From the NCBI RefSeq assembly GCF_000260965.1, contig NC_017856.1, forward strand, positions 2,070,001 to 2,102,000: a DNA stretch of 32,000 bases, in the 5' to 3' direction. The stretch's first letter is position 1. The number at the start of each line of letters is the position of its first letter. A program made the position numbers and the translations under genes. Positions 2,856-16,020 of the stretch are shown piece by piece. Origin of the DNA: Methylophaga frappieri (lineage in GTDB: Bacteria > Pseudomonadota > Gammaproteobacteria > Nitrosococcales > Methylophagaceae). The notes under the pieces are model-generated. The model was not told the origin of the DNA, made no database searches, and was given only the letters and a program-made list of their open reading frames with translations.

Positions 2856-2877
2856 ATGTACTTTTTGGTGCCGGTGA

Positions 2878-4242
2878 GTGACGCAGCTTAATTATGATTT
2901 GTTGGTGATTGGAGCCGGTTCGGCTGGAGTGCGGGCTGCGCGGCTCGCTGCTCAGGCCGGTGCCAAGGTCGCGATTATAGAGCAGCAGGCTTTGGGCGGG
3001 ACCTGTGTCAATTATGGCTGTGTGCCCAAAAAACTGCTTTTTTACAGTGCGGCATATCAAACTCTGCTAGCCGATTCGGGACAATTTGGTTGGAAGACGG
3101 CATCATCGACATTTCATTGGCAAACCTTGCGTGAAAGCGTCACGGCTGCAGTCGAGGAAATCCAGCAAGCCTATCAGAACACCTTGGCTAAGGCCGGCGT
3201 AACCGTGTTATTCGGTAAAGCGAAATTGACGGCATCTCACACGGTACAACTCAATGGGCAAGAGATTCACGCCAAACAATTGTTGATCGCGACTGGCGCC
3301 AGTGCTTTCAGGCCACCCATTCCTGGAATTAATGATGCCCTGACCTCGGATGATATGTTTTGCCTGGAACAATTACCCCAGCGCTTGGCAATCATTGGCG
3401 GTGGTTATATCGCGACAGAATTTGCCGGCTTGATGCAGCGATTCGGTGTACAGATCACCATCATTGCCCGAAGCCCGCGATTATTAATGGGCTTTGATGC
3501 TGAATGCACGGAAGTCTGTGCCAGACAAATGCGCGCTAACGGGATCGACTTACGCCTCAGTCAGGATGCCACTGCCATTACCCGACTGGCCGATGGCAGT
3601 TTGCAAGTCACTACTGAAACTGGCCAGCAGATTGTCGCCGATCAAGTATTGGTTGCGGCTGGGCGCCACGCGAACACGGAAGCGCTTGGGTTAGATGTCT
3701 GCCAACTTGATCTGGATGATCAGGGGTTTATCAAAACAGATTCTTTGGGTCGGACCAATCAAGCTGATATTTTTGCGTTGGGGGATGTGACCGGGGGCAT
3801 GCAATTAACACCAATGGCGATTGCACAGGCAGAAGCCTTGATCAGACATTTATTTACGCCGCCTGCTGAGCCAGTTGATCCGGACAAGGTGCCCACAGCC
3901 GTCTTTTCAGATCCGCCCATTGCCCAGGCGGGGTTAACAGAAGCCATTGCCAAATCACGGGGTATGACGGTGAAGGTGTATAAAAAGACTTTTACCGGTT
4001 TACGTTCACGATTGAGCCAACGGACTGCCAAAAACTTTATCAAGCTGGTTGTTGATAGTGCCTCGGATCAGGTTTTGGGGGCGCAAATGACCGGACCGGA
4101 TGCCAGTGAAATTATGCAGGGGTTAGCGATCGCAATTCAGGCCGGTGCAACTAAAGCTGATTTTGACCGTACTATCGCCATTCATCCAACCAGTGCAGAA
4201 GAATTCACCAGCTTGACAGAGGTAGACTCAGAAAAATCCTGA
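2878..4242 (+). CDS. gor: Glutathione-disulfide reductase (class I pyridine nucleotide-disulfide oxidoreductase)
   Basis: DLLVIGAGSAG FAD fold; redox-active GGTCVNYGCVPKK; IIGGGYIATEFAG NADPH fold followed by ARSPR; C-terminal HPTSAEEF. GTG start at 2878. Confidence 0.8.
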   Translation: MTQLNYDLLVIGAGSAGVRAARLAAQAGAKVAIIEQQALGGTCVNYGCVPKKLLFYSAAYQTLLADSGQFGWKTASSTFHWQTLRESVTAAVEEIQQAYQNTLAKAGVTVLFGKAKLTASHTVQLNGQEIHAKQLLIATGASAFRPPIPGINDALTSDDMFCLEQLPQRLAIIGGGYIATEFAGLMQRFGVQITIIARSPRLLMGFDAECTEVCARQMRANGIDLRLSQDATAITRLADGSLQVTTETGQQIVADQVLVAAGRHANTEALGLDVCQLDLDDQGFIKTDSLGRTNQADIFALGDVTGGMQLTPMAIAQAEALIRHLFTPPAEPVDPDKVPTAVFSDPPIAQAGLTEAIAKSRGMTVKVYKKTFTGLRSRLSQRTAKNFIKLVVDSASDQVLGAQMTGPDASEIMQGLAIAIQAGATKADFDRTIAIHPTSAEEFTSLTEVDSEKS

Positions 4243-4264
4243 GTGTTAACAGGTAAACCCCTGA

Positions 4265-4292
4265 TTCACATAAATTTGCAATTCACTATCAT
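4265..4292 (+). promoter_or_regulatory. Candidate sigma70 promoter for pqqA (TTCACA - 16 nt - TATCAT)
   Basis: TTCACA at 4265-4270 and TATCAT at 4287-4292 with a 16-nt spacer, about 50 nt upstream of the pqqA ATG. Sequence match only. Confidence 0.35.
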
Positions 4293-4341
4293 AGGAACCA
4301 AGTCAGCGATTAGCTGATAAGTCAACTCAAGGAGAAGTGTT

Positions 4342-4413
4342 ATGTGGACTAAACCAGAATATTCAGATATGCGTTTTGGCTTTGAAGTAACCATGTACAT
4401 CAACAACCGTTAA
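4342..4413 (+). CDS. pqqA: PQQ precursor peptide PqqA (23 aa), stand-alone copy
   Basis: ATG 4342 to TAA 4411-4413 translates to [23 protein letters not shown]. It has the PqqA hallmark MW.KP...D.R.GFEVTMY..NR, with the Glu-x-x-x-Tyr pair that is cross-linked into PQQ. An AAGGAG Shine-Dalgarno sequence lies about 7 nt upstream. It is too short to appear in the ORF track. Confidence 0.85.
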
Positions 4414-4431
4414 TATTAACGGCAAGAATTC

Positions 4432-4461
4432 AAAAAAACCCGGCAAAAGTCGGGTTTTTTT
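4432..4461 (+). terminator. Rho-independent terminator after pqqA, bidirectional in form
   Basis: A7 run, stem ACCCGGC (4438-4444), AAAA loop, stem GTCGGGT (4449-4455), then a T7 run. Confidence 0.8.
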
Positions 4462-4594
4462 GTGCCCAAACCTAGGCCAGAGCGGGTTTTAAGATAACCT
4501 GAGAGACGCTGACTGGTGGTGAAATAAATCTGGGTTAAGAGACAAATGCAAGGCGTATGCTACGCTTAATCATTTAATTGTCATTTATGGATAT

Positions 4595-6727
4595 TTGATG
4601 ACGAATCCAATGCGCATACCGGTTCCCGGTAAAAATTGCTGGCAGTATGTCTCAGCTAACCGTGCCAGCTTACTCATTGATGGGGAAAATTATTTTCCAG
4701 CTCTGCATCAGGCAATAACCAATGCCAAGCGGCGAATTATTATCGTTGGTTGGGATATAGATAGCCGCATGCTGTTACGCCGCGGGCAAGATCTCCCAGA
4801 TGATTTGCCCAATGAGTTAGGTCATATTTTGTGCTATGCGCTGCAGCAAACCCCATCCCTTGATGTATACATTCTAAATTGGGATTGGGCCATGATGTAT
4901 ACATTTGAGCGTGAGTGGTTACCCACTTACCGGCCGCTGTGGCGTCATCAAGATCGGCTACATTTTGAGCTTGATGGTGAGTGTCCGCAAACCGCGTCAC
5001 AACACCAAAAAATAGTGGTTATTGATGATCAATTAGCTTTTTGTGGCGGTTTTGATCTCGGTAAACATCGCTGGGATAGCCGCGACCATGCGGCCGAAGA
5101 TAGTCGCCGTCAAGATCCCGATAAGCAAGCCTATCCTCCTTTTCATGATGTGCAGTGGTTAGTGGATGGTGAAGCAGCCTGTGCGTTATCAGATTTGGCA
5201 CGAGAGCGGTGGTTTCGTGCTACCGAGCAGACCTTAACACCAATCCCAGGTGGCGAAGATGTATGGCCTAACAGCGTATCGCCTGACTTTGAGCAGGTCG
5301 ATTTAGCGATTGCCCGAACTCAGCCGGCTTATGGTGGTTATCCTGAAGTTCGAGAAGTTGAGCGCTTGTATTTAGATAGTATTGCGAGTGCGGAATCATT
5401 GATTTACATTGAAAATCAATACTTTACTTCATCAGTTATAACTGATGCATTGGCAAAACGTTTGGCCGAACCAGCGGGGCCAGAGATTATTATTGTCTTG
5501 CCTAAAATGACGGGGGGCTGGTTAGAGCAAAATACCATGGATGTGCTCAGAGCACGTCTCATGCGTCGATTATGTGAGGCCGATAAGCATCAGCGTTTGC
5601 GGGTCTGCTATCCGCATCGTGATGCGCTTGGTGACCGTTATATCAGCGTGCACAGTAAAACCATGATCATTGATGACCACTGGCTGCGAGTGGGCTCCAG
5701 TAATTTGAGTAATCGCTCTATGGGGCTGGACAGTGAGTGTGATATTGGATTGCAGGCAACTAACCAGCGCCAAACGCAAAAAATAGCTAACATTCGACAT
5801 GATTTACTTGCTGAACATATGGGCATGTCGATTGCGGATGTCATTGAAGGCATCAAGCAACACGGTTCAGTACGACACTTTATCGATGCGCACCAAGATG
5901 CAGCTCATACCTTACGTGCTTTGGATTGCCAGGTCACTGAGCTAAGTGATGAATTGTTACCGGATAGTAGCGTCATTGACCCCGAAAAGCCGTTACAAGC
6001 CGATGATATGGCCAAGTTGTTATTGCCAATCCAGCAGCGTTCCGCTTTCCGAAAACAGTGGTTAACGGGGGTTGGCATTATTCTGTTTATTTGCTTGATC
6101 ACGCTGTTATGGCAATTCACTCCGCTGGCGGAATGGTTCAGTGAGGAAAATCTGGAAAGTGCTGGTCAGACGATTAAATCTCTGCCATTTGCGCCGATTT
6201 TGCTGTTGTTAGTGTTTGCGATCAGTAGCTTATTCGGCGTACCGGTGACGTTATTGATCATTGCAACAGTGATGACTTTTGGCGCTATTCAGGGCGGCAT
6301 TTATGCACTTATCGGCGCGGTGATGGGGGCTGTGCTGGGTTTTCTGTGCGGTCAACGGCTAGGTAAAGGCGCACTGGCAAGACTGGCCGGTAGTCAGGTT
6401 AACCGAATCAGCAAACGTTTGGCCAAACGCGGCTTATTGACGATTATTACGGTTCGGATTGTCCCGGTGGCGCCTTTTACCGTTATCAATCTGGTTGCCG
6501 GCGCATCTCATATTCGGTTACGTGATTTTTGTTGGGGAACGGTGCTCGGCATGCTGCCAGCGATTTTAGCGTTCACCGTATTTACCGATTCATTGATTGC
6601 CGCACTGAAACAGCCTGATGCCAGCCAAATCGGTGTATTGCTAGGGGTTATCGTGGCCGTCATAGTGTTGAGTGCGGGTTTACAAAAATTGTTTTTACGA
6701 CGTGATGCAAAGCGGCCGCAAAGCTGA
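4595..6727 (+). CDS. Phospholipase D / cardiolipin-synthase-like enzyme (two HKD motifs) fused to a C-terminal DedA/VTT (SNARE-associated) polytopic membrane domain
   Basis: HKD 1: HQKIVVIDDQLAFCGGFDLG. HKD 2: HSKTMIIDDHWLRVGSSNLSNRS. The last ~230 aa are hydrophobic helices with DedA-like features (GQRLGKGAL, ITVRIVPVAPFTVINLVAGAS). TTG at 4595 or ATG at 4598 could be the start. Confidence 0.8.
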   Translation: MMTNPMRIPVPGKNCWQYVSANRASLLIDGENYFPALHQAITNAKRRIIIVGWDIDSRMLLRRGQDLPDDLPNELGHILCYALQQTPSLDVYILNWDWAMMYTFEREWLPTYRPLWRHQDRLHFELDGECPQTASQHQKIVVIDDQLAFCGGFDLGKHRWDSRDHAAEDSRRQDPDKQAYPPFHDVQWLVDGEAACALSDLARERWFRATEQTLTPIPGGEDVWPNSVSPDFEQVDLAIARTQPAYGGYPEVREVERLYLDSIASAESLIYIENQYFTSSVITDALAKRLAEPAGPEIIIVLPKMTGGWLEQNTMDVLRARLMRRLCEADKHQRLRVCYPHRDALGDRYISVHSKTMIIDDHWLRVGSSNLSNRSMGLDSECDIGLQATNQRQTQKIANIRHDLLAEHMGMSIADVIEGIKQHGSVRHFIDAHQDAAHTLRALDCQVTELSDELLPDSSVIDPEKPLQADDMAKLLLPIQQRSAFRKQWLTGVGIILFICLITLLWQFTPLAEWFSEENLESAGQTIKSLPFAPILLLLVFAISSLFGVPVTLLIIATVMTFGAIQGGIYALIGAVMGAVLGFLCGQRLGKGALARLAGSQVNRISKRLAKRGLLTIITVRIVPVAPFTVINLVAGASHIRLRDFCWGTVLGMLPAILAFTVFTDSLIAALKQPDASQIGVLLGVIVAVIVLSAGLQKLFLRRDAKRPQS

Positions 6728-7419
6728 TGCGGCTGCGTATTGCCAGCTATAACATTCATGCCGGTATTGGCTCTGATGGTCAATTTGACCCGGCACGAAT
6801 TGCCACAGTCATTGATGAACTGAATGCCGATGTCATTGCGTTACAAGAGGTGGAACATCACTTGATTGAGGAAGGTGATTTTTTAGATTACCTTGCTGCC
6901 AGAACCGGATATCAAGCAGTGTCAGGGCCGACCTTAATGCGGGAAACCCGGCATTATGGCAATGCGGTGTTAACCCGGCTGCCGGTCATTGCCAGTCAAC
7001 GTCGCGATATTTCCTTCGCTGGACACGAGCCCCGTGCTGTTTTGGAGGTGGAGTTGGCGGTCGCGAGCAAAATAATTACGGTGATGGCGACTCACCTTGG
7101 TTTGTGGCCATCGGAACGGCGCTCGCAAGTGCGACAGATTGTCAATTTGTTACAGCAGAGCCACAGTGACTATATTTGGCTCATGGGGGACTTAAATGAA
7201 TGGCTGATTTGGGGAAGGCCGTTAAACTGGTTAAAGCATTTTTTTAGATATTCGCATCATATCGCAACATTTCCTTCATTTTTCCCCTTATTATCGTTAG
7301 ATCGGCTATGGGTCATGCCACAGCAAAGCTTGCTTTCTGTGCGTGCGCATCGTTCAAAGATCAGCCGTCAGGCTTCCGATCATTTGCCTCTGGTTGGGGA
7401 AGTAATCATCGAGACCTGA
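6727..7419 (+). CDS. Endonuclease/exonuclease/phosphatase (EEP) family hydrolase
   Basis: IASYNIHAG, ALQEVE, GDLNEW and SDHLPL match the EEP catalytic Asn/Glu/Asp/His positions. The ATG at 6727 shares its A with the upstream TGA (TGATG), indicating translational coupling. Confidence 0.8.
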   Translation: MRLRIASYNIHAGIGSDGQFDPARIATVIDELNADVIALQEVEHHLIEEGDFLDYLAARTGYQAVSGPTLMRETRHYGNAVLTRLPVIASQRRDISFAGHEPRAVLEVELAVASKIITVMATHLGLWPSERRSQVRQIVNLLQQSHSDYIWLMGDLNEWLIWGRPLNWLKHFFRYSHHIATFPSFFPLLSLDRLWVMPQQSLLSVRAHRSKISRQASDHLPLVGEVIIET

Positions 7420-7504
7420 GCGGGATCTGACAAAGCCCAAGCAAGACCATTGCCCTGATTCAGAATTACGACTATCTTTGTGCAATTAATGCACGGGACA
7501 TGAC

Positions 7505-8230
7505 ATGACTTATTGTGTGGCAATTTCGCTCGACGACGGCTTGGTGCTCACCTCTGACTCGCGAACCAATGCCGGAATTGATCAGGTGAGCACTTACAGC
7601 AAGATGTTTACCTTTGAAACCGATCCAAACCGGTCCCTGGTGTTGCTAAGTGCTGGTAATCTGGCCACGACACAATATGTTGCTGAACAGTTGAAACGTG
7701 ATATTCGCGAGACGCAGCCAAGAAATCTGAACACCTTGAGTTATTTATCTGATGCGGCAGATTATGTCGGTGAAATTCTCAGCAGTCGTATTCGTCGTCA
7801 TGCGGATAATGAAGCAAGTGGCTTTGCTCCTGAGGCAACTTTGATTTTGGCTGGGCAGATCCATGGTAATCCACATCAGGCTTTTCTGATTTATCCCCAA
7901 GGCAATCACATCACGACATCTCAGGAAACACCCTATTTGCAGATTGGCGAAAGTAAGTATGGCAAGCCGGTGCTAGATCGGTTTATCAGACCACATACAT
8001 CACTGGCTGACGCTGCTACCTGCGCGCTGATTTCCATGGACTCTACTATGCAGAGTAATGTCAGTGTCGGACCGCCTATTGAGGTGTTGATTTACCGAAA
8101 AGACACTTTTGATGTAAGTAAACGCTATCGTTTTCATGCAGAGCATCCTTACCTTATCGAATTAAGGAAGGCTTGGGGGGAGCGACTGCGGCAGGCGTTT
8201 TGTGAGATGCCTCGGTTTAACGAACAGTAG
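7505..8230 (+). CDS. Anbu-type proteasome beta-like Ntn hydrolase (ancestral beta subunit)
   Basis: The N-terminus MTYCVAISLDDGLVLTSDSRTNAG puts Thr directly after Met, with Asp18 and Lys33 in proteasome-beta register. The ~240 aa size is typical of Anbu, and the neighbours are ATP-grasp and alpha-E genes. Confidence 0.8.
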   Translation: MTYCVAISLDDGLVLTSDSRTNAGIDQVSTYSKMFTFETDPNRSLVLLSAGNLATTQYVAEQLKRDIRETQPRNLNTLSYLSDAADYVGEILSSRIRRHADNEASGFAPEATLILAGQIHGNPHQAFLIYPQGNHITTSQETPYLQIGESKYGKPVLDRFIRPHTSLADAATCALISMDSTMQSNVSVGPPIEVLIYRKDTFDVSKRYRFHAEHPYLIELRKAWGERLRQAFCEMPRFNEQ

Positions 8231-9245
8231 GGTGAATCAAATTATCAATAAACTGTAATTTTTGTTTCACCACAGGTGAGATGACAAACGGATACGCGTC
8301 TGCGTTGCCGGTGCTACGATTTAAGGCATTCAAAATGGTGACCAATTGATACCACTCTGTCATCCACAAGGTGTCTCCGGCTTTTTTCTCTGGTTGACTA
8401 ATCAGGTCAAAGGCTAGCGCCGTTTCCAGTGTTTCCTGCATTAGTAAGTAATGTGCCCAAGTCTCGGCCCAGTCTTCAAGTGGATGCGCGCTGGCATAGG
8501 CGGAAATGAACGTGGTCTGCCAGTGTTGGGCAGGTCCATGTTGATAGTAATGATTTAATGCCGCGGAATACTCCTGATGCGGGTTGCCAAACAAGGTCTC
8601 AAATTCGCTGCTCTTTGCTGAGTCGCGAATCAACAGTAACCAGTAAAAATGACCAACTTCGTGCCGAAAATGGCCTAATAAGGTCCGATATGGTTCATTC
8701 ATCGCTTCCCGTGCTGCTTCCCGATAGCTGCCGTCGGCCTCGGCAGCATTCAAGGTAATCCGGCCATTCACATGGCCACTTAACACGTGCTCAAGTCCAA
8801 CATTTGGATTAGTTTGCTGATCTTCGAGAAATTCAAATATCAGTCGAGGTTCGGTGTCAAAAACAGGCAGTTTTAGTGACAATAAACCGTATAAAAGGCG
8901 CCGTTTGGCTGATTCCAACACCTGCCATCGACGTTGATTGATCAGCGTATTTTGATTCGGAATCAGCTGAGTTAATCGGCAACTGGCACACTGCTGGTTG
9001 CGTGAATTGAGCGGTATCAGCCAGTTACAATGAACAGGTGCCGTGTGAAGCTGGCATCGCTTAAAGTCACCTTGTTGTGTCGAAAATACGTCGTTTGACT
9101 TCGGTGTCAATGACAACAGTTGTCGCTGTTCAGGATCGAATCCCAGCAAACTGCCACAGCGATTACAGTGGCTGTTTTCAAAGAATATTTCCTGCCCACA
9201 TTGACAAAAAAACCGTTTCACTAAAAGGCATCCGGATAAAACCAC
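8217..9245 (-). CDS. Zn-ribbon plus HExxH zinc metallopeptidase family protein
   Basis: N-terminal CQCG...CNRCG zinc ribbon and further Cys pairs (CQLH..HCNW, CASC). RHEVGHFYW is an HExxH site, with downstream EDWAE. The start is GTG 9245, or GTG 9221 overlapping the alpha-E stop by 1 nt (TAGTG). The 3' end overlaps anbu by 14 bp. Confidence 0.7.
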   Translation of the reverse strand: MVLSGCLLVKRFFCQCGQEIFFENSHCNRCGSLLGFDPEQRQLLSLTPKSNDVFSTQQGDFKRCQLHTAPVHCNWLIPLNSRNQQCASCRLTQLIPNQNTLINQRRWQVLESAKRRLLYGLLSLKLPVFDTEPRLIFEFLEDQQTNPNVGLEHVLSGHVNGRITLNAAEADGSYREAAREAMNEPYRTLLGHFRHEVGHFYWLLLIRDSAKSSEFETLFGNPHQEYSAALNHYYQHGPAQHWQTTFISAYASAHPLEDWAETWAHYLLMQETLETALAFDLISQPEKKAGDTLWMTEWYQLVTILNALNRSTGNADAYPFVISPVVKQKLQFIDNLIHPTVR

Positions 9246-10156
9246 TGCTGATTAATAAGCCGGTTCAGATCGGCTAATTGCACCTGCAGGGTATCCATTT
9301 GTTGGTGAATGGTTTCGGCAGGAATATCACGACAATCCAGCTCATCGACAATTGCCAACAGAGCTTGCTGTCTGGCCAGTAAGGTGTCTGGTTCGGGTAA
9401 CGCCGACAGGGAGTGACCAACACTGGACAGGGAAAACGCCAGTGAACGCGGGAAGTGGGCATCATGCGTTAAAAAGTCCAAGACCTGCGCAGCGACAAGG
9501 TTGGAACCATATTGTTGAGTAAACATTTGCAATGCACTCAGTGAGCGCAGTAAATGGGTCCACAGCAGACCATCAAATGCCCGGACATCATCGCCACGAT
9601 TATCTTTTAGCAGCAAAGAGGCCATTTCCAGTATGCGACTGGTCATATCAGTACGCTCCAGATGTTTGGCTGTTTGCAAAAAATAATAAGCATGATTCCG
9701 ACTCATATGATTGGCAATAATGCCCCAGATAGTCTGACACCGTTCCATGATGGCGACCAGCAAGTGTTGACGGCGTCGCCGGTTATATAAAGCCGGCAGT
9801 TCAGTTTTAACCTGCAAATACAGTTCATTTACCTGTTCCCAGGTTTCTTCAGGTAATAAGTCTAATGAGGTACGGGCATTTTCACGAAGTGCAGACAAGG
9901 CATTGATTAAGGCCATGGGATTATCGGTATCGGCCAGCAAAAAATGCATGACGTTATTTTCATTAATTTTGGGATGGCGGGCGTGATAAAAAGCATCGCC
10001 ATCAAACAGACTGACCAGCGTAAACCAACCTATTTCCGCTTCACGCGGTAAATCCATCATCAGCCCAGTGTGCACGTTAATAAGTCGGGTCGTGTTTTCT
10101 ACCCGTTCCAAGTATCGGGCTAACCAGTAAACGCGTTCTGCTGCTCGCGATAGCAT
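9221..10156 (-). CDS. Alpha-E domain protein (partner of circularly permuted ATP-grasp enzymes)
   Basis: The N-terminus MLSRAAERVYWLARYLERVENTTRLINV is the characteristic alpha-E opening. The protein is all-helical and ~310 aa. Its start shares 1 nt with the ATP-grasp stop (TGATG, 10154-10158). Confidence 0.8.
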   Translation of the reverse strand: MLSRAAERVYWLARYLERVENTTRLINVHTGLMMDLPREAEIGWFTLVSLFDGDAFYHARHPKINENNVMHFLLADTDNPMALINALSALRENARTSLDLLPEETWEQVNELYLQVKTELPALYNRRRRQHLLVAIMERCQTIWGIIANHMSRNHAYYFLQTAKHLERTDMTSRILEMASLLLKDNRGDDVRAFDGLLWTHLLRSLSALQMFTQQYGSNLVAAQVLDFLTHDAHFPRSLAFSLSSVGHSLSALPEPDTLLARQQALLAIVDELDCRDIPAETIHQQMDTLQVQLADLNRLINQQWFYPDAF

Positions 10157-11619
10157 CAGTCATGCCCTCCTGAAATCGGGCTATCATCAATTATCCAGGT
10201 ATCTTTACTGCCGCCACCTTGAGAAGAATTGACCACCAGTGAGCCTTCGACTAGAGCCACCCGGGTCAGACCACCGGGGGTGACGTAGTGGTTTTTACCG
10301 GAAAGAATAAAAGGCCTTAAATCGACGTGGCGGGGCGCAACTTTATCACCACAAAAAGTCGGTGAAACAGACAGTTTCAAGGTGGGTTGGGCAATGTAAT
10401 TGGTTGGATTATCGACAATTAATTGCCGAAACTCAGCAATTTTATCAGCACTGCTGTGTGGGCCAACCAGCATGCCATACCCCCCAGACTCGTTGGCGGG
10501 TTTGACAACCAGTTCCGGCAGATTAGCTAATACATGTTCCAGATCGCTGGCGTTACTACACAGCCAGGTAGGCACATTTGGCAAGATCGGGGGCTCGTTG
10601 AGGTAGTAGCGGATCATGTCCGGCACGTACGCATAAATCACTTTATCATCAGCAACGCCACAGCCCGGTGCGTTGGCAATAGCCACCTTGCCATCGCGCC
10701 AGGCCTGCATAATGCCGGGGATGCCCAAGGTGGAATCCGCACGAAAAACCTGTGGATCAATAAAGTCGTCATCAATTCGTCGATAAATGACATCAACCCG
10801 CTCCAGGCCGTGGATGGTTTTCATATAAACAAAGCCATCCTGACCCACGATCAGATCGGCGCCCTCAAGCAGAATCAGCCCCGCTTGTTGGGCGAGCGCA
10901 GCATGTTCGAAATAAGCTGAATTGAAAATGCCGGGCGTTAATAACGCCATGGTCGGATTCGCTAAATCGGGTCGCAGCGAGCGCAGCATACTGGCGAGTT
11001 GGGCGGGATAATCATTGACCGGGCTGATATTCAGGCGTTTAAACAGTTCCGGCAGTACCCGTTTGGTCGTTTTACGGTTTTCCAACATGTAAGCCACACC
11101 GGAAGGGACGCGCAGGTTATCCTCAAGAACATAAAGTGTTCCGGTATCATCACGAACCAGATCGGATCCGCAAATATGAGCCCACACGCCATAAGCTGGC
11201 TTCATCCCTTGGCATTCTGGCCGGTAACCTTTGGATTTGAAAACGGTCTCCGCGGGTATGACGCCATCACGAATGATGTGTTGCTCGTTATAGATATCAT
11301 CGATGAACCGGTTTAAAGCACGAATACGTTGCACGAGCCCCTTTTCGGTGCAGTCCCATTCCTGTTTGGACAACACCCGCGGAATAATATCGAACGGCCA
11401 GGCGCGATCAATATTGCCGGCATCAGAGTAAATGGTAAAGGTGATGCCACGTTCCAATATTTCGATTTCAGACTCGGCCACACGCTGTCTGAACGCCTCA
11501 TTTTTCATGGATCGCAAATGATCCAACAAACGATAACTAAAAGTTCTAGGCTGGTGTCCATCGACCATTAATTCATCATGAAAATGACCCGGATCGTAGT
11601 GTTGCCATAAATTAACCAT
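10156..11619 (-). CDS. Circularly permuted type-2 ATP-grasp protein (predicted amidoligase/peptide ligase)
   Basis: 487 aa. ITFTIYSD..DRAWPFDIIPRVLSKQEWDCTEKGLVQRIRALNRFIDDIYNEQ is the conserved N-terminal block of this family. First gene of a 3-gene coupled operon. Confidence 0.8.
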   Translation of the reverse strand: MVNLWQHYDPGHFHDELMVDGHQPRTFSYRLLDHLRSMKNEAFRQRVAESEIEILERGITFTIYSDAGNIDRAWPFDIIPRVLSKQEWDCTEKGLVQRIRALNRFIDDIYNEQHIIRDGVIPAETVFKSKGYRPECQGMKPAYGVWAHICGSDLVRDDTGTLYVLEDNLRVPSGVAYMLENRKTTKRVLPELFKRLNISPVNDYPAQLASMLRSLRPDLANPTMALLTPGIFNSAYFEHAALAQQAGLILLEGADLIVGQDGFVYMKTIHGLERVDVIYRRIDDDFIDPQVFRADSTLGIPGIMQAWRDGKVAIANAPGCGVADDKVIYAYVPDMIRYYLNEPPILPNVPTWLCSNASDLEHVLANLPELVVKPANESGGYGMLVGPHSSADKIAEFRQLIVDNPTNYIAQPTLKLSVSPTFCGDKVAPRHVDLRPFILSGKNHYVTPGGLTRVALVEGSLVVNSSQGGGSKDTWIIDDSPISGGHD

Positions 11620-11698
11620 ACCTGCGCTCTCTGATATGCCTGATTGACAGGCATTAAGTCTGCAAGTCTTATGCCTTTATCCAAAAAGGCCGGCGGCG

Positions 11699-13495
11699 CT
11701 AGCTGGTGATAGTCATTAACACTTCACCCGGGGTGACACGATCGCCTTTGGCAACATTGATTTCACTGATAGTGCCATCAATTTTGGCCAGTAATTCGGT
11801 TTCCATTTTCATGGCTTCAATCACCATCAATGCCTGACCACTTGTGACCTTATCACCAGTGTTAACCAATACATCGACAACATTGCCCGGTAATGGTGGG
11901 CTGACATGCCCAGGCTCAGTGGCTTTTTGTCTACCACCCCCACCTTGATTGACATATTCATTCAAGGCTTCAAACGTCACTTCCTCAGGCATGCCGTCCA
12001 ATGACAAATAGACTTTGCGCTTGCCGCCACCGACATCACCAACCCCGGTAATGGCAATCTCGTAGGTTTCACCATGCACATCAACTTTGAACTCGGTGGC
12101 CACCGCCTCATTCTGACGAACCGTGTTTTCGCTTGCCGGCAGCAGTGGCTCCGGTTTCAAAGTGCCCTCTTTGCGTTGCTGTAAAAACTCACGGCCTAAG
12201 TCGGGAAACATGGCATAGGTCAGTACATCTTCTTCACAACTGGCCAGATCCCCAATTTCCGCTCGTAACTTGGTTAATTCTGGCACCAGTAAATCTGCCG
12301 GACGACAATCCATCACCTCACCGTTGCCAATAGCACGTTTTTGTAAGTCGGCATTGACCTTGGCGGGCGGTTGCCCGTAACCACCAGACAGATAACGCTT
12401 CACTTCATTGGTAATGGTCTTATATCGCTCGCCAGCCAAGACGTTGTAAACCGCCTGCGTACCCACAATTTGCGATGTCGGTGTCACTAGTGGCGGGTAA
12501 CCCAGATCTTCACGCACCCGGGGAATTTCGTCGAAAACATCACGGATACGGTCCAAGGCATTCTGTTCTTTGAGTTGATTGGCCAGATTGGACATCATGC
12601 CGCCTGGCACTTGACTGACCTGAACCATAACGTCTTCACGGGTAAATTCGCTTTCAAATTGATGGTATTTTTTGCGAACGTCGCGAAAATAGTCGGCAAT
12701 TTCAGTTAACAGGTGCAAATCGAGACCGGTATCCCACGGCGTCCCACGCAACATCGCAACTTGGGCTTCAGTGGCCGGGTGGCTGGTGCCATTGGCAAAA
12801 GAAGATATAGCCGTATCAATACGGTCGACCCCCGCTTCAATGGCTTTTATCTGACACTGTGCTGCCAGGCCTGACGTTGCATGGCTATGAATCACCAGTG
12901 GCAAGTCGACCTCTGCCTTAATCGCTTTGACCAAATCATAGGTTGGGTATGGGGCCAGCAAACCCGCCATATCTTTAATCGCAATCGAATCGGCGCCCAT
13001 CTCGCGCAGAGATTTGGCCAGGCTAACAAACCGCTCTGGTGTATGAACCGGGCTGGTGGTATAGCTCAGCGTGCCTTGTGCATGTTTGCCGCTGTCCTTG
13101 ACGGCTGACATGGCGGTTTCAAGGTTTCGAAGATCATTGAGCGCATCAAATACCCGGAATACATCAATGCCATTTTCAGCGGCTTTGCCAACAAAAGCGC
13201 GCACAACATCATCTGCATAATGTCGATAACCGAGCAGGTTCTGACCTCGCAATAGCATTTGCAGGCGGGTATTAGGCAACGCTTGACGAAGATCACGTAA
13301 CCGTTGCCACGGATCTTCTTTTAAAAAGCGAACACAGGCATCAAAGGTGGCACCACCCCAGACTTCTAAGGACCAGTAGCCGACCTTATCCAATTTGTCG
13401 CAGATAGGCAGCATGTCTTCAGTTCGCATACGGGTGGCAATAAGAGACTGATGCGCATCCCGCAAAATAACATCGGTGACTTCAATTTTTTTCAT
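11699..13495 (-). CDS. pycB: Pyruvate carboxylase subunit B (carboxyltransferase plus biotinyl carrier domain; oxaloacetate-decarboxylase-alpha-like)
   Basis: MKKIEVTDVILRDAHQS TIM-barrel carboxyltransferase opening; C-terminal EAMKMETEL biotinylation motif. I prefer ATG 13495 (MKKIEV) to the track start at 13528, which would overlap pycA. Confidence 0.85.
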   Translation of the reverse strand: MKKIEVTDVILRDAHQSLIATRMRTEDMLPICDKLDKVGYWSLEVWGGATFDACVRFLKEDPWQRLRDLRQALPNTRLQMLLRGQNLLGYRHYADDVVRAFVGKAAENGIDVFRVFDALNDLRNLETAMSAVKDSGKHAQGTLSYTTSPVHTPERFVSLAKSLREMGADSIAIKDMAGLLAPYPTYDLVKAIKAEVDLPLVIHSHATSGLAAQCQIKAIEAGVDRIDTAISSFANGTSHPATEAQVAMLRGTPWDTGLDLHLLTEIADYFRDVRKKYHQFESEFTREDVMVQVSQVPGGMMSNLANQLKEQNALDRIRDVFDEIPRVREDLGYPPLVTPTSQIVGTQAVYNVLAGERYKTITNEVKRYLSGGYGQPPAKVNADLQKRAIGNGEVMDCRPADLLVPELTKLRAEIGDLASCEEDVLTYAMFPDLGREFLQQRKEGTLKPEPLLPASENTVRQNEAVATEFKVDVHGETYEIAITGVGDVGGGKRKVYLSLDGMPEEVTFEALNEYVNQGGGGRQKATEPGHVSPPLPGNVVDVLVNTGDKVTSGQALMVIEAMKMETELLAKIDGTISEINVAKGDRVTPGEVLMTITS

Positions 13496-13524
13496 GACAA
13501 GTTCTCTCTGGATTATGGGGGCAA

Positions 13525-14940
13525 TCACCAGCCAGCATGGGCAGCCAGTGCGGTGGCAATGGCAAGTGCCACCGCACTGGGATGACGTTTTTCAGAATAA
13601 TTCAACAGTTCCGGATGACCGGCGACGAAGCTGGTATCAAAGTGGCCCTGACGAAAATCCGGGTGATTTAGAATTTGTTGGTAATAGGTGGCCGTGGTTT
13701 TAATCCCATGCAGACGCATATCGTCGAGTGCGCGCTGGCCACGATCAACTGCATCTTCCCAATTGAGTGCCCAGACGACGAGTTTTAAGCACATGGAATC
13801 AAAATGCGGGGGAATCTGATACCCCGTGTAGATCGCCGTATCAATCCGAACACCGGGCCCGCCAGGCGCATAGTAGTGAGTAATACGCCCGAAACTCGGT
13901 AAAAAGTCATTCTTAGGATCTTCGGCATTGATACGAAACTGCAATGCAAAGCCACGATATTGAATATCTTGCTGGCGATAACTCAAGGATAGACCACTGG
14001 CAATACGAAGCTGTTCACGAACAATATCGACGCCGGTAATTTGTTCGGTAATGGTATGTTCGACTTGAATGCGGGTATTCATTTCCATGAAATACACCTG
14101 ATTACCGGTCAGTAAAAACTCGACCGTGCCGGCATTTTCGTAACCGACGGCCTTTGCTGCTTTGACCGCTAACTCGCCAACGTAGTCGCGTTGTTCAGGC
14201 GTTAATTGTGGACTGGGCGCAATTTCAATCAGTTTTTGGTTGCGTCGCTGAATCGAACAGTCCCGCTCATAAAGGTGAATCACATTGCCCTGTGAGTCCG
14301 CCAAGATTTGGACCTCGATGTGACGCGGGTTCACGATACATTTTTCAAGAAAGACATCGGCGCTGCCGAATGCTTTGGTTGCTTCGGAAATGACCCGGGG
14401 AAATTGTTGTCGCAATTCTGCTTCCGAATCACATCGCCGAATACCACGGCCACCACCACCAGACGTCGCTTTAATCATCACGGGGTAACCGATTTCGGTT
14501 GCCAAGGCGATGGCCTCATCCAGATTGGCAAGATTGCCATCAGAGCCAGGCGTAATGGGAACCCCGGCAGCACGCATACTATCGCGCGCTGCAGTTTTAT
14601 CGCCCATTTGTTGAATAACGGATGATTTTGGTCCGATAAATGTCACGCCATATTGTTCGCACAATTCAGCGAAACGGGCATTTTCAGACAAAAAACCATA
14701 GCCAGGGTGAATCGCATCACAGCCAGTTTGCAGTGCGAGATTAACAATCCGTAACGGATCCAAGTAACCAGCGACGGGATCATCCCCTAACGAGTGGGCT
14801 TCATCGGCACGTTTAACATGCAGACTGTATTTATCTGCATCGGTATAAACCGCAACCGAACGAATGCCCATCTCGGCACAGGCACGAATGATACGGACTG
14901 CAATTTCACCGCGATTGGCAATCAAGACTTTTTTCAGCAT
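13525..14940 (-). CDS. pycA: Pyruvate carboxylase subunit A (biotin carboxylase)
   Basis: MLKKVLIANRGEIAVRIIRA..., GYGFLSEN, KATSGGGGRGIR, EMNTRIQVEH are biotin carboxylase signatures. ATG 14940 is preceded by AGGAGC; the track start at 14964 adds 8 unlikely residues. Confidence 0.85.
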   Translation of the reverse strand: MLKKVLIANRGEIAVRIIRACAEMGIRSVAVYTDADKYSLHVKRADEAHSLGDDPVAGYLDPLRIVNLALQTGCDAIHPGYGFLSENARFAELCEQYGVTFIGPKSSVIQQMGDKTAARDSMRAAGVPITPGSDGNLANLDEAIALATEIGYPVMIKATSGGGGRGIRRCDSEAELRQQFPRVISEATKAFGSADVFLEKCIVNPRHIEVQILADSQGNVIHLYERDCSIQRRNQKLIEIAPSPQLTPEQRDYVGELAVKAAKAVGYENAGTVEFLLTGNQVYFMEMNTRIQVEHTITEQITGVDIVREQLRIASGLSLSYRQQDIQYRGFALQFRINAEDPKNDFLPSFGRITHYYAPGGPGVRIDTAIYTGYQIPPHFDSMCLKLVVWALNWEDAVDRGQRALDDMRLHGIKTTATYYQQILNHPDFRQGHFDTSFVAGHPELLNYSEKRHPSAVALAIATALAAHAGW

Positions 14941-14994
14941 GACGAGCTCCTGAACGAATGACAAAAGCGTAAATCAGTCTCGATATAATTAAAA

Positions 14995-15036: not shown

Positions 15037-15051
15037 AAGAGAGAAGTGTCG

Positions 15052-16020
15052 ATGTCACTTAATTTACAACAATTACTTAACCGGCTGACATTCCGGCAAT
15101 TACAGGTTTTCCATGCGGTTTATCATCACCGTGGCTATCGACGTGCCTCAGAGGCGCTTGGCCTGACCCAGCCCGCGGTTAGTTCACAAATCCGCAAGCT
15201 TGAAGAAGCGGTTGAAGCCCCGCTTTTCGAATATGTGGGGCGTAAACTCTATTCGACCCCCGCTGGCGAAAAGCTGGCAGAAACAGTGCGAGGTCTGTTT
15301 GAGCAGCTCGGTAATTTGCAAAGCGAATTACAAGCGCTGCGCGGTCAACTAGCGGGCGAATTAAATTTGTGTTTGGTTAATACGGCACAATATGTTGTCC
15401 CGCACATCCTAAAAGGATTTTTACAATTGTACCCGGGCGTTCGTGCCTCACTACGGGTGGTTAATCGTGCCGGTGCCATTGAGGGATTGACGAGAAATCG
15501 TGATGATCTGGTCATCATGGGGCTGGTGCCGACAGATAAGCCCTTGAGTATTTTACCGTTTTTGGATAATGCCTTAATCCCGGTCATGGGGGCGGATTAC
15601 CCGTTGGATAGCCGCAAGCCCATTAGTTTGCGACAGTTTGTCCAGCAGCCACTATTAATGCGCGAAGCAGGGTCAGGTAGCCGGTTGGCATTAGAACAAT
15701 ATTGCCAACAGCGGCATTTAACGGCGCGACCAATGATGGAAATGGGATCCATCGAAACCTTAAAGCAGGGCGTGATGGCCGGTCTTGGCGTTGCGGTAGT
15801 CCCCCAACTAAGCGTGGTGGCGGAGCTGCAAAGCGGTTTGCTCAGACCAATTCCGATCAAGGATTTTAATTTACGGCGTAGTTGGTGTTTGGTGCACCCA
15901 AAAGGAAAGCATCTCAGCCCGGTGGCGCAAGCATTTTATGATTATGTACAGCAAAATCTGGCAGACATAAGCCAGCAGTTTGATCACTTCGATATCGGTA
16001 AACTGGCCGAAACCGCTTAA
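15052..16020 (+). CDS. LysR-family transcriptional regulator, divergent from pycAB
   Basis: N-terminal wHTH (FRQLQVFHAVYHHRGYRRASEALGLTQPAVSSQIRKLEE) plus a LysR substrate-binding domain. ATG 15052 is preferred to GTG 15046. Confidence 0.85.
   Translation: MSLNLQQLLNRLTFRQLQVFHAVYHHRGYRRASEALGLTQPAVSSQIRKLEEAVEAPLFEYVGRKLYSTPAGEKLAETVRGLFEQLGNLQSELQALRGQLAGELNLCLVNTAQYVVPHILKGFLQLYPGVRASLRVVNRAGAIEGLTRNRDDLVIMGLVPTDKPLSILPFLDNALIPVMGADYPLDSRKPISLRQFVQQPLLMREAGSGSRLALEQYCQQRHLTARPMMEMGSIETLKQGVMAGLGVAVVPQLSVVAELQSGLLRPIPIKDFNLRRSWCLVHPKGKHLSPVAQAFYDYVQQNLADISQQFDHFDIGKLAETA

What the first reader, a model, noticed from the sequence alone, without database searches (positions are those of the whole stretch)
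7505..11619. Anbu proteasome-like protease paired with a CP-ATP-grasp / alpha-E / Zn-ribbon-HExxH peptidase operon, with no transglutaminase
Seen in sequence:
- Three minus-strand genes are chained by 1-nt stop/start overlaps: TGATG at 10154-10158, and TAGTG at 9219-9223 if the GTG at 9221 is used. They therefore form one coupled operon.
- Their products read as a circularly permuted ATP-grasp ligase, an alpha-E protein, and a Cys-rich Zn-ribbon protein with an HEVGH metallopeptidase site.
- Facing them is a proteasome-beta-like protein starting MTYC (Thr nucleophile after Met removal; Asp18 and Lys33 in register).

Established knowledge: Anbu was defined by comparative genomics (Valas and Bourne; Iyer, Aravind and colleagues). 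It is normally operonic with this ATP-grasp, alpha-E and a transglutaminase-like cysteine peptidase. That work predicted an ATP-dependent peptide-tagging or peptide-synthesis plus proteolysis pathway. Anbu structures exist, but to my knowledge no physiological substrate, tag or ligase product has been shown.

Inference: here the transglutaminase slot is filled by a zinc metallopeptidase and Anbu sits on the opposite strand. This looks like a variant architecture of a still uncharacterised conjugation/processing/degradation system. Interchangeable peptidases would suggest the third gene acts as a processing or deconjugating enzyme.
Basis: partly seen in the sequence, partly recalled or inferred. 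Interest (0 to 1): 0.8.

Follow-up and report, generated by a model that had tools for sequence, protein, structure and literature searches.

The report
Anbu operon variant with zinc peptidase
This Methylophaga locus is a widespread but apparently undescribed version of the still-mysterious bacterial "Anbu" proteasome-like operon, in which a zinc metallopeptidase takes the place of the usual transglutaminase-like enzyme; this gives a natural comparison for working out what the system does.

Summary
The window matches Methylophaga frappieri. Three minus-strand genes are chained by 1-nt stop/start overlaps: a circularly permuted ATP-grasp ligase, an Alpha-E protein and a double-Zn-ribbon HExxH peptidase (Pfam Peptidase_Mx). 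A genuine Anbu-1 gene converges on them, with 3' ends overlapping by 14 nt. No transglutaminase lies anywhere in the 32 kb.

The layout is not a one-off. The same four-gene arrangement occurs in 14 of 80 peptidase-sampled genomes, and rearranged versions occur in about 10 more. Among the 80 metagenomic Anbu genes closest to this one, 20 have the peptidase beside them. Anbu, ATP-grasp and Alpha-E trees each separate these operons from canonical transglutaminase operons, so this is an old, co-evolving lineage.

The "interchangeable peptidase" idea is only partly supported. The peptidase also sits beside transglutaminase-containing ATP-grasp/Alpha-E systems, and it stands alone in about half the genomes sampled.

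Most likely function (inferred): an ATP-dependent amide ligase pair working with two amide hydrolases. The zinc peptidase would trim or remove the ligated group, and Anbu would degrade the product. In Methylophaga the operon may be sigma-54 controlled.

Verdict: a new variant of a known, uncharacterised system, of moderate interest.

The parts
10156..11619 (-). Circularly permuted ATP-grasp amide ligase (487 aa), first gene of the coupled operon
   Evidence: Pfam CP_ATPgrasp_2 2.8e-162 and CP_ATPgrasp_1 5e-134. PDB 3N6X matches at 8e-159 over residues 35-479.
9221..10156 (-). Alpha-E protein (311 aa); its start overlaps the ligase stop (TGATG)
   Evidence: Pfam Alpha-E 5.4e-75, model positions 1-294 of 294. 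N-terminal RYLERVENT motif read from the translation. Alpha-E is fused to the ATP-grasp in related systems (L053 862-aa protein).
8217..9221 (-). Double Zn-ribbon plus HExxH zincin peptidase (334 aa, GTG start at 9221; overlaps the Alpha-E stop, TAGTG)
   Evidence: Pfam Zn_ribbon_DZR_6 7e-22 plus Peptidase_Mx 1e-90. 8 Cys, H187-E188-x-x-H191 and H246-P-x-E249-D250-W-A-E253 are conserved in 98/98 homologs. AF2 model pLDDT 84, pTM 0.87.
7505..8230 (+). Anbu (Anbu-1 type proteasome-like Ntn hydrolase, 241 aa), convergent with the peptidase gene
   Evidence: PDB 5LOY 1.4e-70, 5NYW 1.5e-65, 5LOX 2.4e-56, 5NYF 6e-54. Thr2/Asp18/Lys33 invariant.
8217..8230 (.). 14-nt overlap of the convergent 3' coding ends of Anbu and the peptidase gene
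   Evidence: ORF coordinates. The same tail-to-tail overlap occurs in 13 of 19 related loci, median 29 nt, and in Thiothrix L171.
10154..10158 (-). TGATG stop/start overlap, ATP-grasp to Alpha-E
   Evidence: Sequence read.
9219..9223 (-). TAGTG stop/start overlap, Alpha-E to peptidase
   Evidence: Sequence read. The Alpha-E/peptidase junction overlaps in 12 of 16 related loci, by 4 nt (ATGA/GTGA) in 9 of them.
11661..11676 (-). Candidate sigma-54 -24/-12 promoter AGGCAT-N5-TTGCA, 41 nt upstream of the ATP-grasp ATG (inference)
   Evidence: Same element at the same distance in Methylophaga MAG L001 (GGGCACAACACTTGCA), inside the only conserved island of the intergenic region. Not conserved in other lineages.

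Best explanation
The four genes form one functional module, a distinct lineage of the Anbu operon. Shown: family membership, gene arrangement, conservation and co-divergence. Inferred: the mechanism. The CP-ATP-grasp enzyme, working with Alpha-E, uses ATP to activate a carboxylate as an acyl-phosphate and ligates an amine to it. The product is an amino-acid or peptide tag on a protein, or a small peptide or polyamide. Two cytoplasmic amide hydrolases act on that product. The Zn-ribbon/HExxH peptidase does the job attributed to the transglutaminase-like cysteine peptidase in canonical operons, which is trimming, processing or removing the ligated group, with its two zinc ribbons serving as a docking or substrate-recognition module. 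Anbu is the processive degrading or recycling hydrolase. In Methylophaga the ligase-AlphaE-peptidase transcript probably starts at a sigma-54 promoter, which would fit the nitrogen-limitation induction reported for the canonical Pseudomonas putida operon.
For: Family assignments.

Translational coupling: present in the window and conserved, with the Alpha-E/peptidase junction overlapping in 12 of 16 loci.

Recurrence of the layout: the exact four-gene layout occurs in 14 of 80 peptidase-sampled species genomes. It occurs rearranged (peptidase/Anbu pair kept, ligase-AlphaE moved) in 5 more, including a Nitrospirota MAG, and as peptidase-ligase-AlphaE in 3. Independent Pfam-annotated gene calls confirm the labels. 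In an Anbu-sampled metagenome set, 20 of 80 loci carry the peptidase. Among the 42 loci with at least 1.5 kb on both flanks, 12 have the peptidase and 6 have a small TGase.

Co-divergence: NJ trees of Anbu, ATP-grasp and Alpha-E each split peptidase-linked operons from canonical TGase operons at the midpoint root. The peptidase tree mirrors the operon types.

Module boundaries: outside the genus, only the four genes stay syntenic.

Active sites: intact in both alternatives. Peptidase HExxH and 8 Cys are conserved 98/98, and the canonical TGase has an invariant GVCQD Cys plus invariant His and Asp columns.

Rosetta-stone link: ATP-grasp and Alpha-E are fused in related systems.

Literature: the TGase-like protein is predicted to reverse tags added by the ATP-grasp (PMC3495828). 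The Y. bercovieri ATP-grasp releases phosphate from ATP (PMC6376114). The canonical operon is induced under nitrogen limitation (PMC3235984 note added in proof; PMC5666114).

Sigma-54-like element.
Against: No biochemical activity or substrate is known for any component beyond ATP hydrolysis by one ortholog, and purified Anbu has shown no peptidase activity on standard substrates (PMC6376114, PMC5666114). The peptidase is not confined to this context: 42 of 80 sampled copies have no ATP-grasp/Alpha-E gene within reach (for example Pseudomonas, downstream of smc-zipA-ligA). It also co-occurs with TGase domains in other architectures, so functional equivalence to the TGase is not established. 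Anbu is on the opposite strand, so co-regulation is inferred only from conserved adjacency. The sigma-54 match is conserved in only two Methylophaga loci, and matches of that quality occur at chance frequency window-wide (26 found, 25.5 expected). The trees are NJ only, from a biased sample.
Confidence: 0.55

Rival explanations
1. The peptidase is an addition and not a substitution. The transglutaminase function is still present in M. frappieri, encoded elsewhere (for example as the TGase-DUF2126 amidoligase fusion), and the zinc peptidase has its own distinct step in the pathway.
For: TGase-DUF2126 lies beside peptidase-type operons in L007, L094 and L124, and 8 kb from the Thiothrix peptidase/Anbu pair. 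L053 has the peptidase converging on a full ligase-AlphaE-TGase triad. In the Anbu-sampled set, TGase-DUF2126 is as frequent a neighbour as the peptidase, at 12 of 42 each. Valas and Bourne found no Anbu genome without a transglutaminase (PMC3235984).
Against: 23 of 25 re-scanned peptidase-linked loci, and the 32-kb window, have no TGase-like ORF nearby. The peptidase occupies exactly the TGase position and is translationally coupled to Alpha-E.
Confidence: 0.3
2. The module makes and recycles a small nitrogen-containing metabolite or polymer and is not a protein tag system. Candidates are a glutathionylspermidine-like or cyanophycin/poly-amino-acid-like amide. The ligase pair would synthesise it, and the zinc peptidase and Anbu would break it down.
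For: The closest solved structure is deposited as 'putative glutathionylspermidine synthase' (3N6X). No precursor-peptide ORF fits in the operon or its flanks. The canonical operon is nitrogen-limitation induced (PMC3235984). A glutathione synthetase gene lies divergent from the ligase in Thiomicrospira L170. Iyer et al. 2009, as summarised in PMC5666114, proposed a peptide-synthesis system.
Against: Anbu has a ring-like multi-site architecture and binds proteasome inhibitors, which its structural authors read as favouring protein degradation (PMC5666114). Double Zn-ribbons are more typical of macromolecule recognition (own knowledge).
Confidence: 0.25
3. The peptidase is an unrelated housekeeping enzyme whose adjacency to the ligase genes and Anbu is inherited synteny without functional meaning.
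For: 42 of 80 sampled copies are 'solo'. In 12 Pseudomonas genomes the peptidase follows smc-zipA-ligA. Ralstonia keeps it far from its canonical Anbu operon.
Against: Adjacency recurs in at least four different gene orders and with two different kinds of ATP-grasp/Alpha-E system, across Gamma- and Betaproteobacteria, Nitrospirota, Bacteroidota and Planctomycetota. Stop/start overlaps are conserved. Four gene trees are congruent. Synteny is lost for all flanking genes but kept for these four.
Confidence: 0.08
4. It is an ATP-grasp RiPP (graspetide-like) cluster or an anti-phage defence island.
For: Superficially, an ATP-grasp ligase sits next to peptidases.
Against: No precursor ORF is possible in the 79-nt and 85-nt flanking gaps, and the genes overlap one another. 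The ligase is the COG2308/3N6X type and not a graspetide ligase. There are no PADLOC hits for any of the four proteins. The flanks are housekeeping genes.
Confidence: 0.02

Closest known systems
Canonical Anbu operon (ATP-grasp, Alpha-E, transglutaminase-like protein, Anbu; e.g. P. aeruginosa around PA1733, Yersinia bercovieri; Valas and Bourne 2008; Iyer et al. 2009)
   Same: Related ATP-grasp, Alpha-E and Anbu-1 genes, with the same order for the first two and tight coupling. The window Anbu is 42-47% identical to Anbu from the canonical operons fetched here. The catalytic Thr/Asp/Lys residues are the same.
   Different: The third gene is a Zn-ribbon/HExxH zincin in place of a Cys-His-Asp transglutaminase-like protein. 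Anbu is convergent with overlapping 3' ends, not co-directional as the last gene. All three shared genes fall in a separate clade from canonical operons.
TGase-DUF2126 amidoligase / ATP-grasp-Alpha-E fusion / transglutaminase clusters (second system type described from comparative genomics)
   Same: They share the CP-ATP-grasp and Alpha-E domains. The same peptidase family sits beside them in Burkholderiales, a Saccharospirillum MAG, a Bacteroidota MAG and a Planctomycetota MAG.
   Different: The window has no DUF2126, no fusion protein and no transglutaminase domain. Those clusters usually lack Anbu.
Tubulin TTL/TTLL ATP-grasp ligases paired with cytosolic zinc carboxypeptidases (CCPs); own knowledge, used as a functional analogy only
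   Same: The logic matches: an ATP-grasp enzyme writes amino-acid tags on protein carboxylates and a zinc metallopeptidase erases them. PMC3495828 already compares the bacterial ATP-grasp/TGase system to TTLs.
   Different: There is no homology between Peptidase_Mx and M14 carboxypeptidases. No substrate is known here, and the eukaryotic system has no Anbu or Alpha-E component.
Peptidase_Mx / former DUF2248 (PF15887 + PF10005), predicted zincin with remote similarity to the anthrax lethal factor catalytic domain (PMC3650047)
   Same: The window protein is a full-length, typical member (1e-90).
   Different: The family has no characterised member. Its link to ATP-grasp/Alpha-E/Anbu is not mentioned in any paper I could read.

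Membership tests
Anbu (Anbu-1 subtype) | Strong full-length sequence similarity to structurally characterised Anbu proteins | tested here: met
   5LOY 1.4e-70 (query 2-236 to chain 1-235), 5NYW, 5LOX, 5NYF.
Anbu (Anbu-1 subtype) | Catalytic Thr directly after the initiator Met (no propeptide), plus Asp17 and Lys32/33 | tested here: met
   The protein starts MTYC. T2, D18 and K33 (numbering with Met) are invariant in 11 sequences. Criteria taken from PMC6376114 and PMC5666114.
Anbu (Anbu-1 subtype) | Anbu-1-type S1 pocket (Pa-Anbu T20, F30, T48, L52, S55) as opposed to the basic Anbu-2 pocket | tested here: met
   Read from the sequence, numbering without Met: T20, Y30, S48, L52, T55. These are conservative variants, with no Arg at the Anbu-2 positions (criteria from PMC5666114).
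Anbu (Anbu-1 subtype) | Open split-ring dodecamer | not testable with these tools
   Needs experiment or multimer modelling.
Canonical Anbu operon | CP-ATP-grasp and Alpha-E genes adjacent and coupled | tested here: met
Canonical Anbu operon | Transglutaminase-like gene between Alpha-E and Anbu | tested here: not met
   No Transglut_core or TGase HMM hit in 32 kb. The slot holds Peptidase_Mx.
Canonical Anbu operon | Anbu co-directional as last gene of the operon | tested here: not met
   Anbu is on the opposite strand, convergent, with a 14-nt 3' overlap.
CP-ATP-grasp (COG2308 / PF14403, PF04174) | Full-length match to the family models and to the solved representative | tested here: met
   2.8e-162 over model positions 1-374 of 374. 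3N6X at 8e-159.
CP-ATP-grasp (COG2308 / PF14403, PF04174) | ATP-dependent carboxylate-amine ligase activity | not testable with these tools
   Only phosphate release from ATP has been shown, for the Y. bercovieri ortholog (PMC6376114).
Alpha-E (PF04168) | Full-length helical domain with the conserved ER motif | tested here: met
   5.4e-75 over model positions 1-294 of 294. RYLERVENT at residues 14-22.
Zincin metallopeptidase (Peptidase_Mx, clan MA-like) | HExxH zinc-binding/catalytic motif, conserved across the family | tested here: met
   HEVGH at residues 187-191. H, E and H are conserved 98/98.
Zincin metallopeptidase (Peptidase_Mx, clan MA-like) | Identifiable third zinc ligand | tested here: inconclusive
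   Invariant H246, E249, D250, E253 and H257 are candidates.
Zincin metallopeptidase (Peptidase_Mx, clan MA-like) | Zincin fold similar to a solved metallopeptidase | tested here: inconclusive
   The confident model (pLDDT 84) gives only non-significant Foldseek hits. The best are anthrax lethal factor entries at E=0.18, TM 0.24. No PDB sequence relative below E=0.38.
Graspetide/RiPP ATP-grasp cluster | Adjacent precursor-peptide gene | tested here: not met
   The intergenic gaps of 79 and 85 nt hold no ORF, and the genes overlap.
Known anti-phage defence systems (PADLOC) | Any component matching a defence-system model | tested here: not met
   0 hits for all four proteins.

The most novel reading that the evidence does not exclude
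The ligase-AlphaE-zinc peptidase/Anbu module is a self-contained bacterial protein tagging, de-tagging and degradation pathway, analogous in logic to ubiquitin or Pup systems. ATP-grasp plus Alpha-E would write an amino-acid tag on protein carboxylates, Anbu would degrade tagged proteins, and the Zn-ribbon peptidase would erase or recycle the tag. The module would be switched on under nitrogen limitation, and the convergently overlapping peptidase/Anbu transcripts would provide built-in antisense balancing of the two hydrolases.
Probability: 0.15. Interest if true: 0.85.

Novelty: new variant of a known kind. Interest (0 to 1): 0.5.

Why it matters
Anbu has been known since 2008 and has several crystal structures, yet it has no substrate, no demonstrated activity and no established pathway. 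All published discussion that I could read assumes the four-gene operon with a transglutaminase. This analysis shows three things. Among the Anbu genes nearest to this one, the transglutaminase operon is the minority arrangement. A zinc peptidase (or a TGase-DUF2126 fusion) is the commoner partner. The peptidase-type operon is a separate, co-evolving lineage. That gives experimenters a natural swap: two chemically different hydrolases in the same slot. If both serve the same step, that step is amide hydrolysis and not cross-linking, which narrows the hypotheses. It also identifies an uncharacterised metallopeptidase family with at least 7,800 detected members as a likely component of ATP-grasp/Alpha-E systems.

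Tried and rejected
1. Iyer et al. 2009, the founding comparative-genomics paper, could not be retrieved by PMC id, DOI or PubMed id. I therefore cannot exclude that it already mentions the Zn-ribbon peptidase. Seven full-text searches found no paper linking Peptidase_Mx/DUF2248/COG4307 to these systems.

2. Structural identification of the peptidase failed. The PDB sequence search gave nothing below E=0.38, and Foldseek on a confident model gave no significant hit.

3. A general sigma-54 promoter upstream of the ligase gene is rejected. Only the two Methylophaga loci score above background, and other lineages match the random distribution.

4. No sigma-70 promoter or terminator excess in 7300-11800. 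No Rfam element. No PADLOC hit.

5. A palindrome upstream of Anbu (GTGCA-N5-TGCAC, 7480-7494) is not conserved in L001 or L002.

6. My first regex-based detection of peptidase start codons missed most loci. I redid it from tblastn coordinates.

7. Whether M. frappieri has a transglutaminase elsewhere in its genome could not be tested.

Full report
**1. What is in the sequence**

The window matches Methylophaga frappieri: the 334-aa peptidase is 100% identical to the deposited protein Q7C_2075.
- Anbu-like gene, 7505-8230 on the plus strand.
- Peptidase, 8217-9221 on the minus strand.
- Alpha-E, 9221-10156 on the minus strand.
- ATP-grasp, 10156-11619 on the minus strand.

The stop/start overlaps are real. 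TGATG spans 10158-10154 and TAGTG spans 9223-9219 on the minus strand. The mechanical ORF list offers an earlier GTG at 9245. The GTG at 9221 is the true start, because the deposited protein begins there and all 20 aligned homologs begin at this position, mostly with M-K-R-F/Y. Anbu and the peptidase gene are tail-to-tail, and their coding ends overlap by 14 nt (8217-8230).

**2. Family assignments**

Pfam results:
- ATP-grasp: CP_ATPgrasp_2, 2.8e-162.
- Alpha-E: 5.4e-75 over the whole model.
- Peptidase: Zn_ribbon_DZR_6, 7e-22, plus Peptidase_Mx, 1e-90.
- Anbu-like protein: Proteasome, 2.8e-6.

The weak proteasome hit is resolved by the PDB search. The protein matches the Anbu-1 consensus design 5LOY at 1.4e-70, and also the Hyphomicrobium, P. 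aeruginosa and Y. bercovieri Anbu structures. Thr2, Asp18 and Lys33 are invariant across Anbu sequences from both operon types. The S1-pocket positions are of the Anbu-1 kind as defined in PMC5666114.

The ligase matches PDB 3N6X at 8e-159 over nearly its full length.

The peptidase has no solved relative by sequence. A confident AlphaFold model (pLDDT 84, pTM 0.87) finds only non-significant structural neighbours, the best being anthrax lethal factor at E=0.18. That echoes the remote zincin prediction made for DUF2248 in PMC3650047. Across 98 homologs, eight cysteines (two zinc knuckle pairs), HExxH and an HPxEDWAE motif are invariant. The protein therefore looks like an active, cytoplasmic zincin with an N-terminal double zinc ribbon.

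**3. No transglutaminase locally**

Pfam annotation of 20 other ORFs in the window shows signalling, redox, PLD/VTT, an EEP-family phosphatase/nuclease, a two-subunit pyruvate-carboxylase-like pair, LysR, transporters, copper resistance and housekeeping genes. There is no Transglut_core. Three transglutaminase HMMs that I built from related loci find nothing in any stop-to-stop ORF of the window at E<=0.01.

**4. Is the arrangement conserved? Sampling by the peptidase**

A scan of one genome per species returned 80 loci with 40-61% identical peptidases. I labelled neighbours in three ways: tblastn, clustering of all ORFs, and HMMs built from the clusters and anchored by Pfam on representatives. 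Counts are below.

| Arrangement | Loci | Notes |
|---|---|---|
| Ligase, Alpha-E, peptidase, then convergent Anbu (the window's layout) | 14 | All Gammaproteobacteria: Methylophaga, Marinimicrobium, Gilvimarinus, Woeseiaceae, Chromatocurvus, Pseudohongiella and MAGs |
| Same, but no Anbu | 1 | L003 |
| Same, with TGase-DUF2126 inserted before Anbu | 1 | L007 |
| Peptidase/Anbu pair kept, ligase-AlphaE on the other side | 5 | Includes a Nitrospirota MAG |
| Peptidase, ligase, Alpha-E, no Anbu | 3 | |
| Ligase-AlphaE/Anbu with the peptidase 3.5 kb away | 1 | L068 |
| Peptidase beside a different system: TGase-DUF2126, an ATP-grasp-Alpha-E fusion protein and a small transglutaminase | 13 | Burkholderiales, a Saccharospirillum MAG, and Bacteroidota and Planctomycetota MAGs |
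| No such neighbour | 42 | 12 are Pseudomonas genomes where the peptidase follows smc-zipA-ligA |

Precomputed Pfam gene calls from cultured relatives confirm my labels and add two variants. Thiomicrospira microaerophila has ligase-AlphaE-peptidase without Anbu. Thiothrix caldifontis has the overlapping convergent peptidase/Anbu pair alone, with a TGase-DUF2126 gene 8 kb away.

Of the 25 related loci I re-scanned in which the peptidase accompanies stand-alone ligase and Alpha-E genes, 23 have no TGase-like ORF in the stretch fetched (up to 10 kb per side where the contig allows). L007 is a clear exception, and L024 has one weak hit.

**5. Sampling by Anbu**

To remove the selection bias, I scanned metagenome contigs with an Anbu alignment and labelled the 80 loci closest to the window's Anbu.
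- 20 of the 80 carry the peptidase.
- Among the 42 loci with at least 1.5 kb on both flanks: 12 have the peptidase, 12 have TGase-DUF2126 without it, 6 have a small transglutaminase, 5 have only ligase/Alpha-E, and 7 have none of these.
- The gene immediately downstream of Anbu is the convergent peptidase in 15 of the 62 loci with enough sequence.

The set is biased toward relatives of this Anbu. Within that neighbourhood the textbook operon is the minority.

**6. A separate lineage, not sporadic swapping**

I fetched six canonical co-directional operons (ligase, Alpha-E, transglutaminase, Anbu) from annotated chromids and plasmids of Klebsiella, Aeromonas, Ralstonia, Acinetobacter, Paracoccus and Burkholderia. 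Neighbour-joining trees of Anbu, ATP-grasp and Alpha-E each divide at the midpoint root into a canonical clade and a clade holding all peptidase-linked operons of the window's kind and its rearrangements. That second clade also contains some TGase-DUF2126-linked loci.

The peptidase tree shows matching groups: window-type clades, a rearranged-type clade, and a large clade of solo and DUF2126-associated copies.

Three Burkholderiales loci (L016, L030, L053) are an exception. Their ligase and Alpha-E belong to the canonical clade, yet the peptidase lies next to them. So adjacency has arisen more than once.

**7. Fine structure**
- The Alpha-E/peptidase junction overlaps in 12 of 16 loci, by 4 nt in nine.
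- The convergent peptidase and Anbu coding ends overlap in 13 of 19 loci, with a median overlap of 29 nt.
- Outside the genus, only these four genes remain syntenic. The PLD/EEP and pyruvate-carboxylase-like flanks are shared only with the Methylophaga MAG L001.
- Between the window and L001, the peptidase is the fastest-evolving member of the module at 60% identity, against 83% for ligase and Anbu.

**8. Regulation**

A sigma-54-like element, AGGCAT-N5-TTGCA, lies at 11661-11676 on the minus strand, 41 nt upstream of the ligase start. L001 has GGGCAC-N5-TTGCA at 40 nt, inside the only conserved island of an otherwise diverged spacer. Matches of this quality are not enriched in the window as a whole, and other lineages lack it. 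It is therefore a genus-level candidate only.

It would fit two other facts. The canonical P. putida operon is reported to be induced under nitrogen limitation (PMC3235984, PMC5666114). In Acidithiobacillus caldus, ntrBC genes sit beside Anbu.

**9. Mechanism**

Shown: the families, intact active-site motifs, coupling, conservation and co-divergence.

Inferred: the ligase, with Alpha-E, makes an amide-linked product. The two are fused in related systems. The zinc peptidase and Anbu hydrolyse amide bonds in or around that product. The peptidase occupies the slot of the transglutaminase-like protein, and canonical transglutaminases retain an invariant GVCQD Cys plus invariant His and Asp columns. 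Aravind and colleagues predict that the transglutaminase-like protein is a tag-removing peptidase (PMC3495828). The simplest reading is that the step performed there is hydrolytic trimming or removal.

The evidence does not distinguish protein tagging from synthesis of a small peptide or polyamide. There is no room for a precursor-peptide gene and no resemblance to known defence systems.

**10.

The peptidase also co-occurs with transglutaminase domains in several architectures, and Ralstonia megaplasmids carry both. It is often solo. 'Interchangeable' is therefore too strong. 'Alternative or additional accessory hydrolase' fits better. Whether M. frappieri encodes a transglutaminase elsewhere is untested.

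**11. Novelty and verdict**

The Anbu papers I could read describe only the transglutaminase operon (PMC3235984, PMC5666114, PMC6376114, PMC8665760). Papers that mention DUF2248 do not discuss its gene context (PMC3650047).

I rate this a new variant of a known, uncharacterised system. It is real, conserved and useful as a comparative handle, but it does not by itself reveal the function.

Noticed in passing
window 11661-11676 (-): Sigma-54-type -24/-12 match AGGCATAAGACTTGCA, 41 nt before the ATP-grasp start. It is conserved in position and sequence in Methylophaga MAG L001 and absent in other lineages.
   Followed up: partly
window 11699-14964 (-), 15046-16020 (+): A two-subunit pyruvate-carboxylase-like pair (biotin carboxylase; carboxyltransferase plus biotinyl domain) with a divergent LysR regulator. 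It ends only 79 nt upstream of the ATP-grasp gene on the same strand. Read-through transcription into the operon is possible. Synteny is shared only with L001.
   Followed up: partly
window 4595-7419 (+): A PLD-domain protein fused to a VTT/DedA membrane domain, followed by an EEP-family (endonuclease/exonuclease/phosphatase) gene that starts at the last base of the PLD gene's stop codon (6727). This pair lies 85 nt upstream of Anbu on the same strand and is syntenic in L001.
   Followed up: no
window 7480-7494 (+): Inverted repeat GTGCA-ATTAA-TGCAC 10 nt before the Anbu start codon. It is not conserved in L001 or L002.
   Followed up: partly
L171 10001-11728 (Thiothrix caldifontis): The convergent, overlapping peptidase/Anbu pair occurs on its own, with no ATP-grasp or Alpha-E within 10 kb. 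A TGase-DUF2126 gene lies 8 kb away. This suggests the two hydrolases are the tightest unit of the module.
   Followed up: partly
L081 (Acidithiobacillus caldus megaplasmid), 645-14714: Two Anbu paralogs flanked by IS elements, next to glnL/ntrC and a disrupted TGase-DUF2126, followed by ATP-grasp and Alpha-E. Its Anbu and ATP-grasp fall in the peptidase-type clade although no peptidase gene is in the stretch.
   Followed up: partly
L170 6443-9063 (Thiomicrospira microaerophila): A glutathione synthetase gene lies divergent from the ATP-grasp/Alpha-E/peptidase operon. This may be relevant to the small-molecule rival hypothesis.
   Followed up: no
L031, L034, L040, L050, L059 and seven other Pseudomonas loci: In Pseudomonas the peptidase homolog is invariably the gene after smc-zipA-ligA, far from the canonical Anbu operon. 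This is a conserved but functionally unexplained context.
   Followed up: partly
window vs L001, all module genes: Within the module the peptidase evolves fastest between the two Methylophaga genomes: 60% identity against 83% for ATP-grasp and Anbu and 73% for Alpha-E.
   Followed up: no
window 19393-21715 (-): A copper-resistance pair (multicopper oxidase CopA-like and CopB), unrelated to the finding.
   Followed up: no
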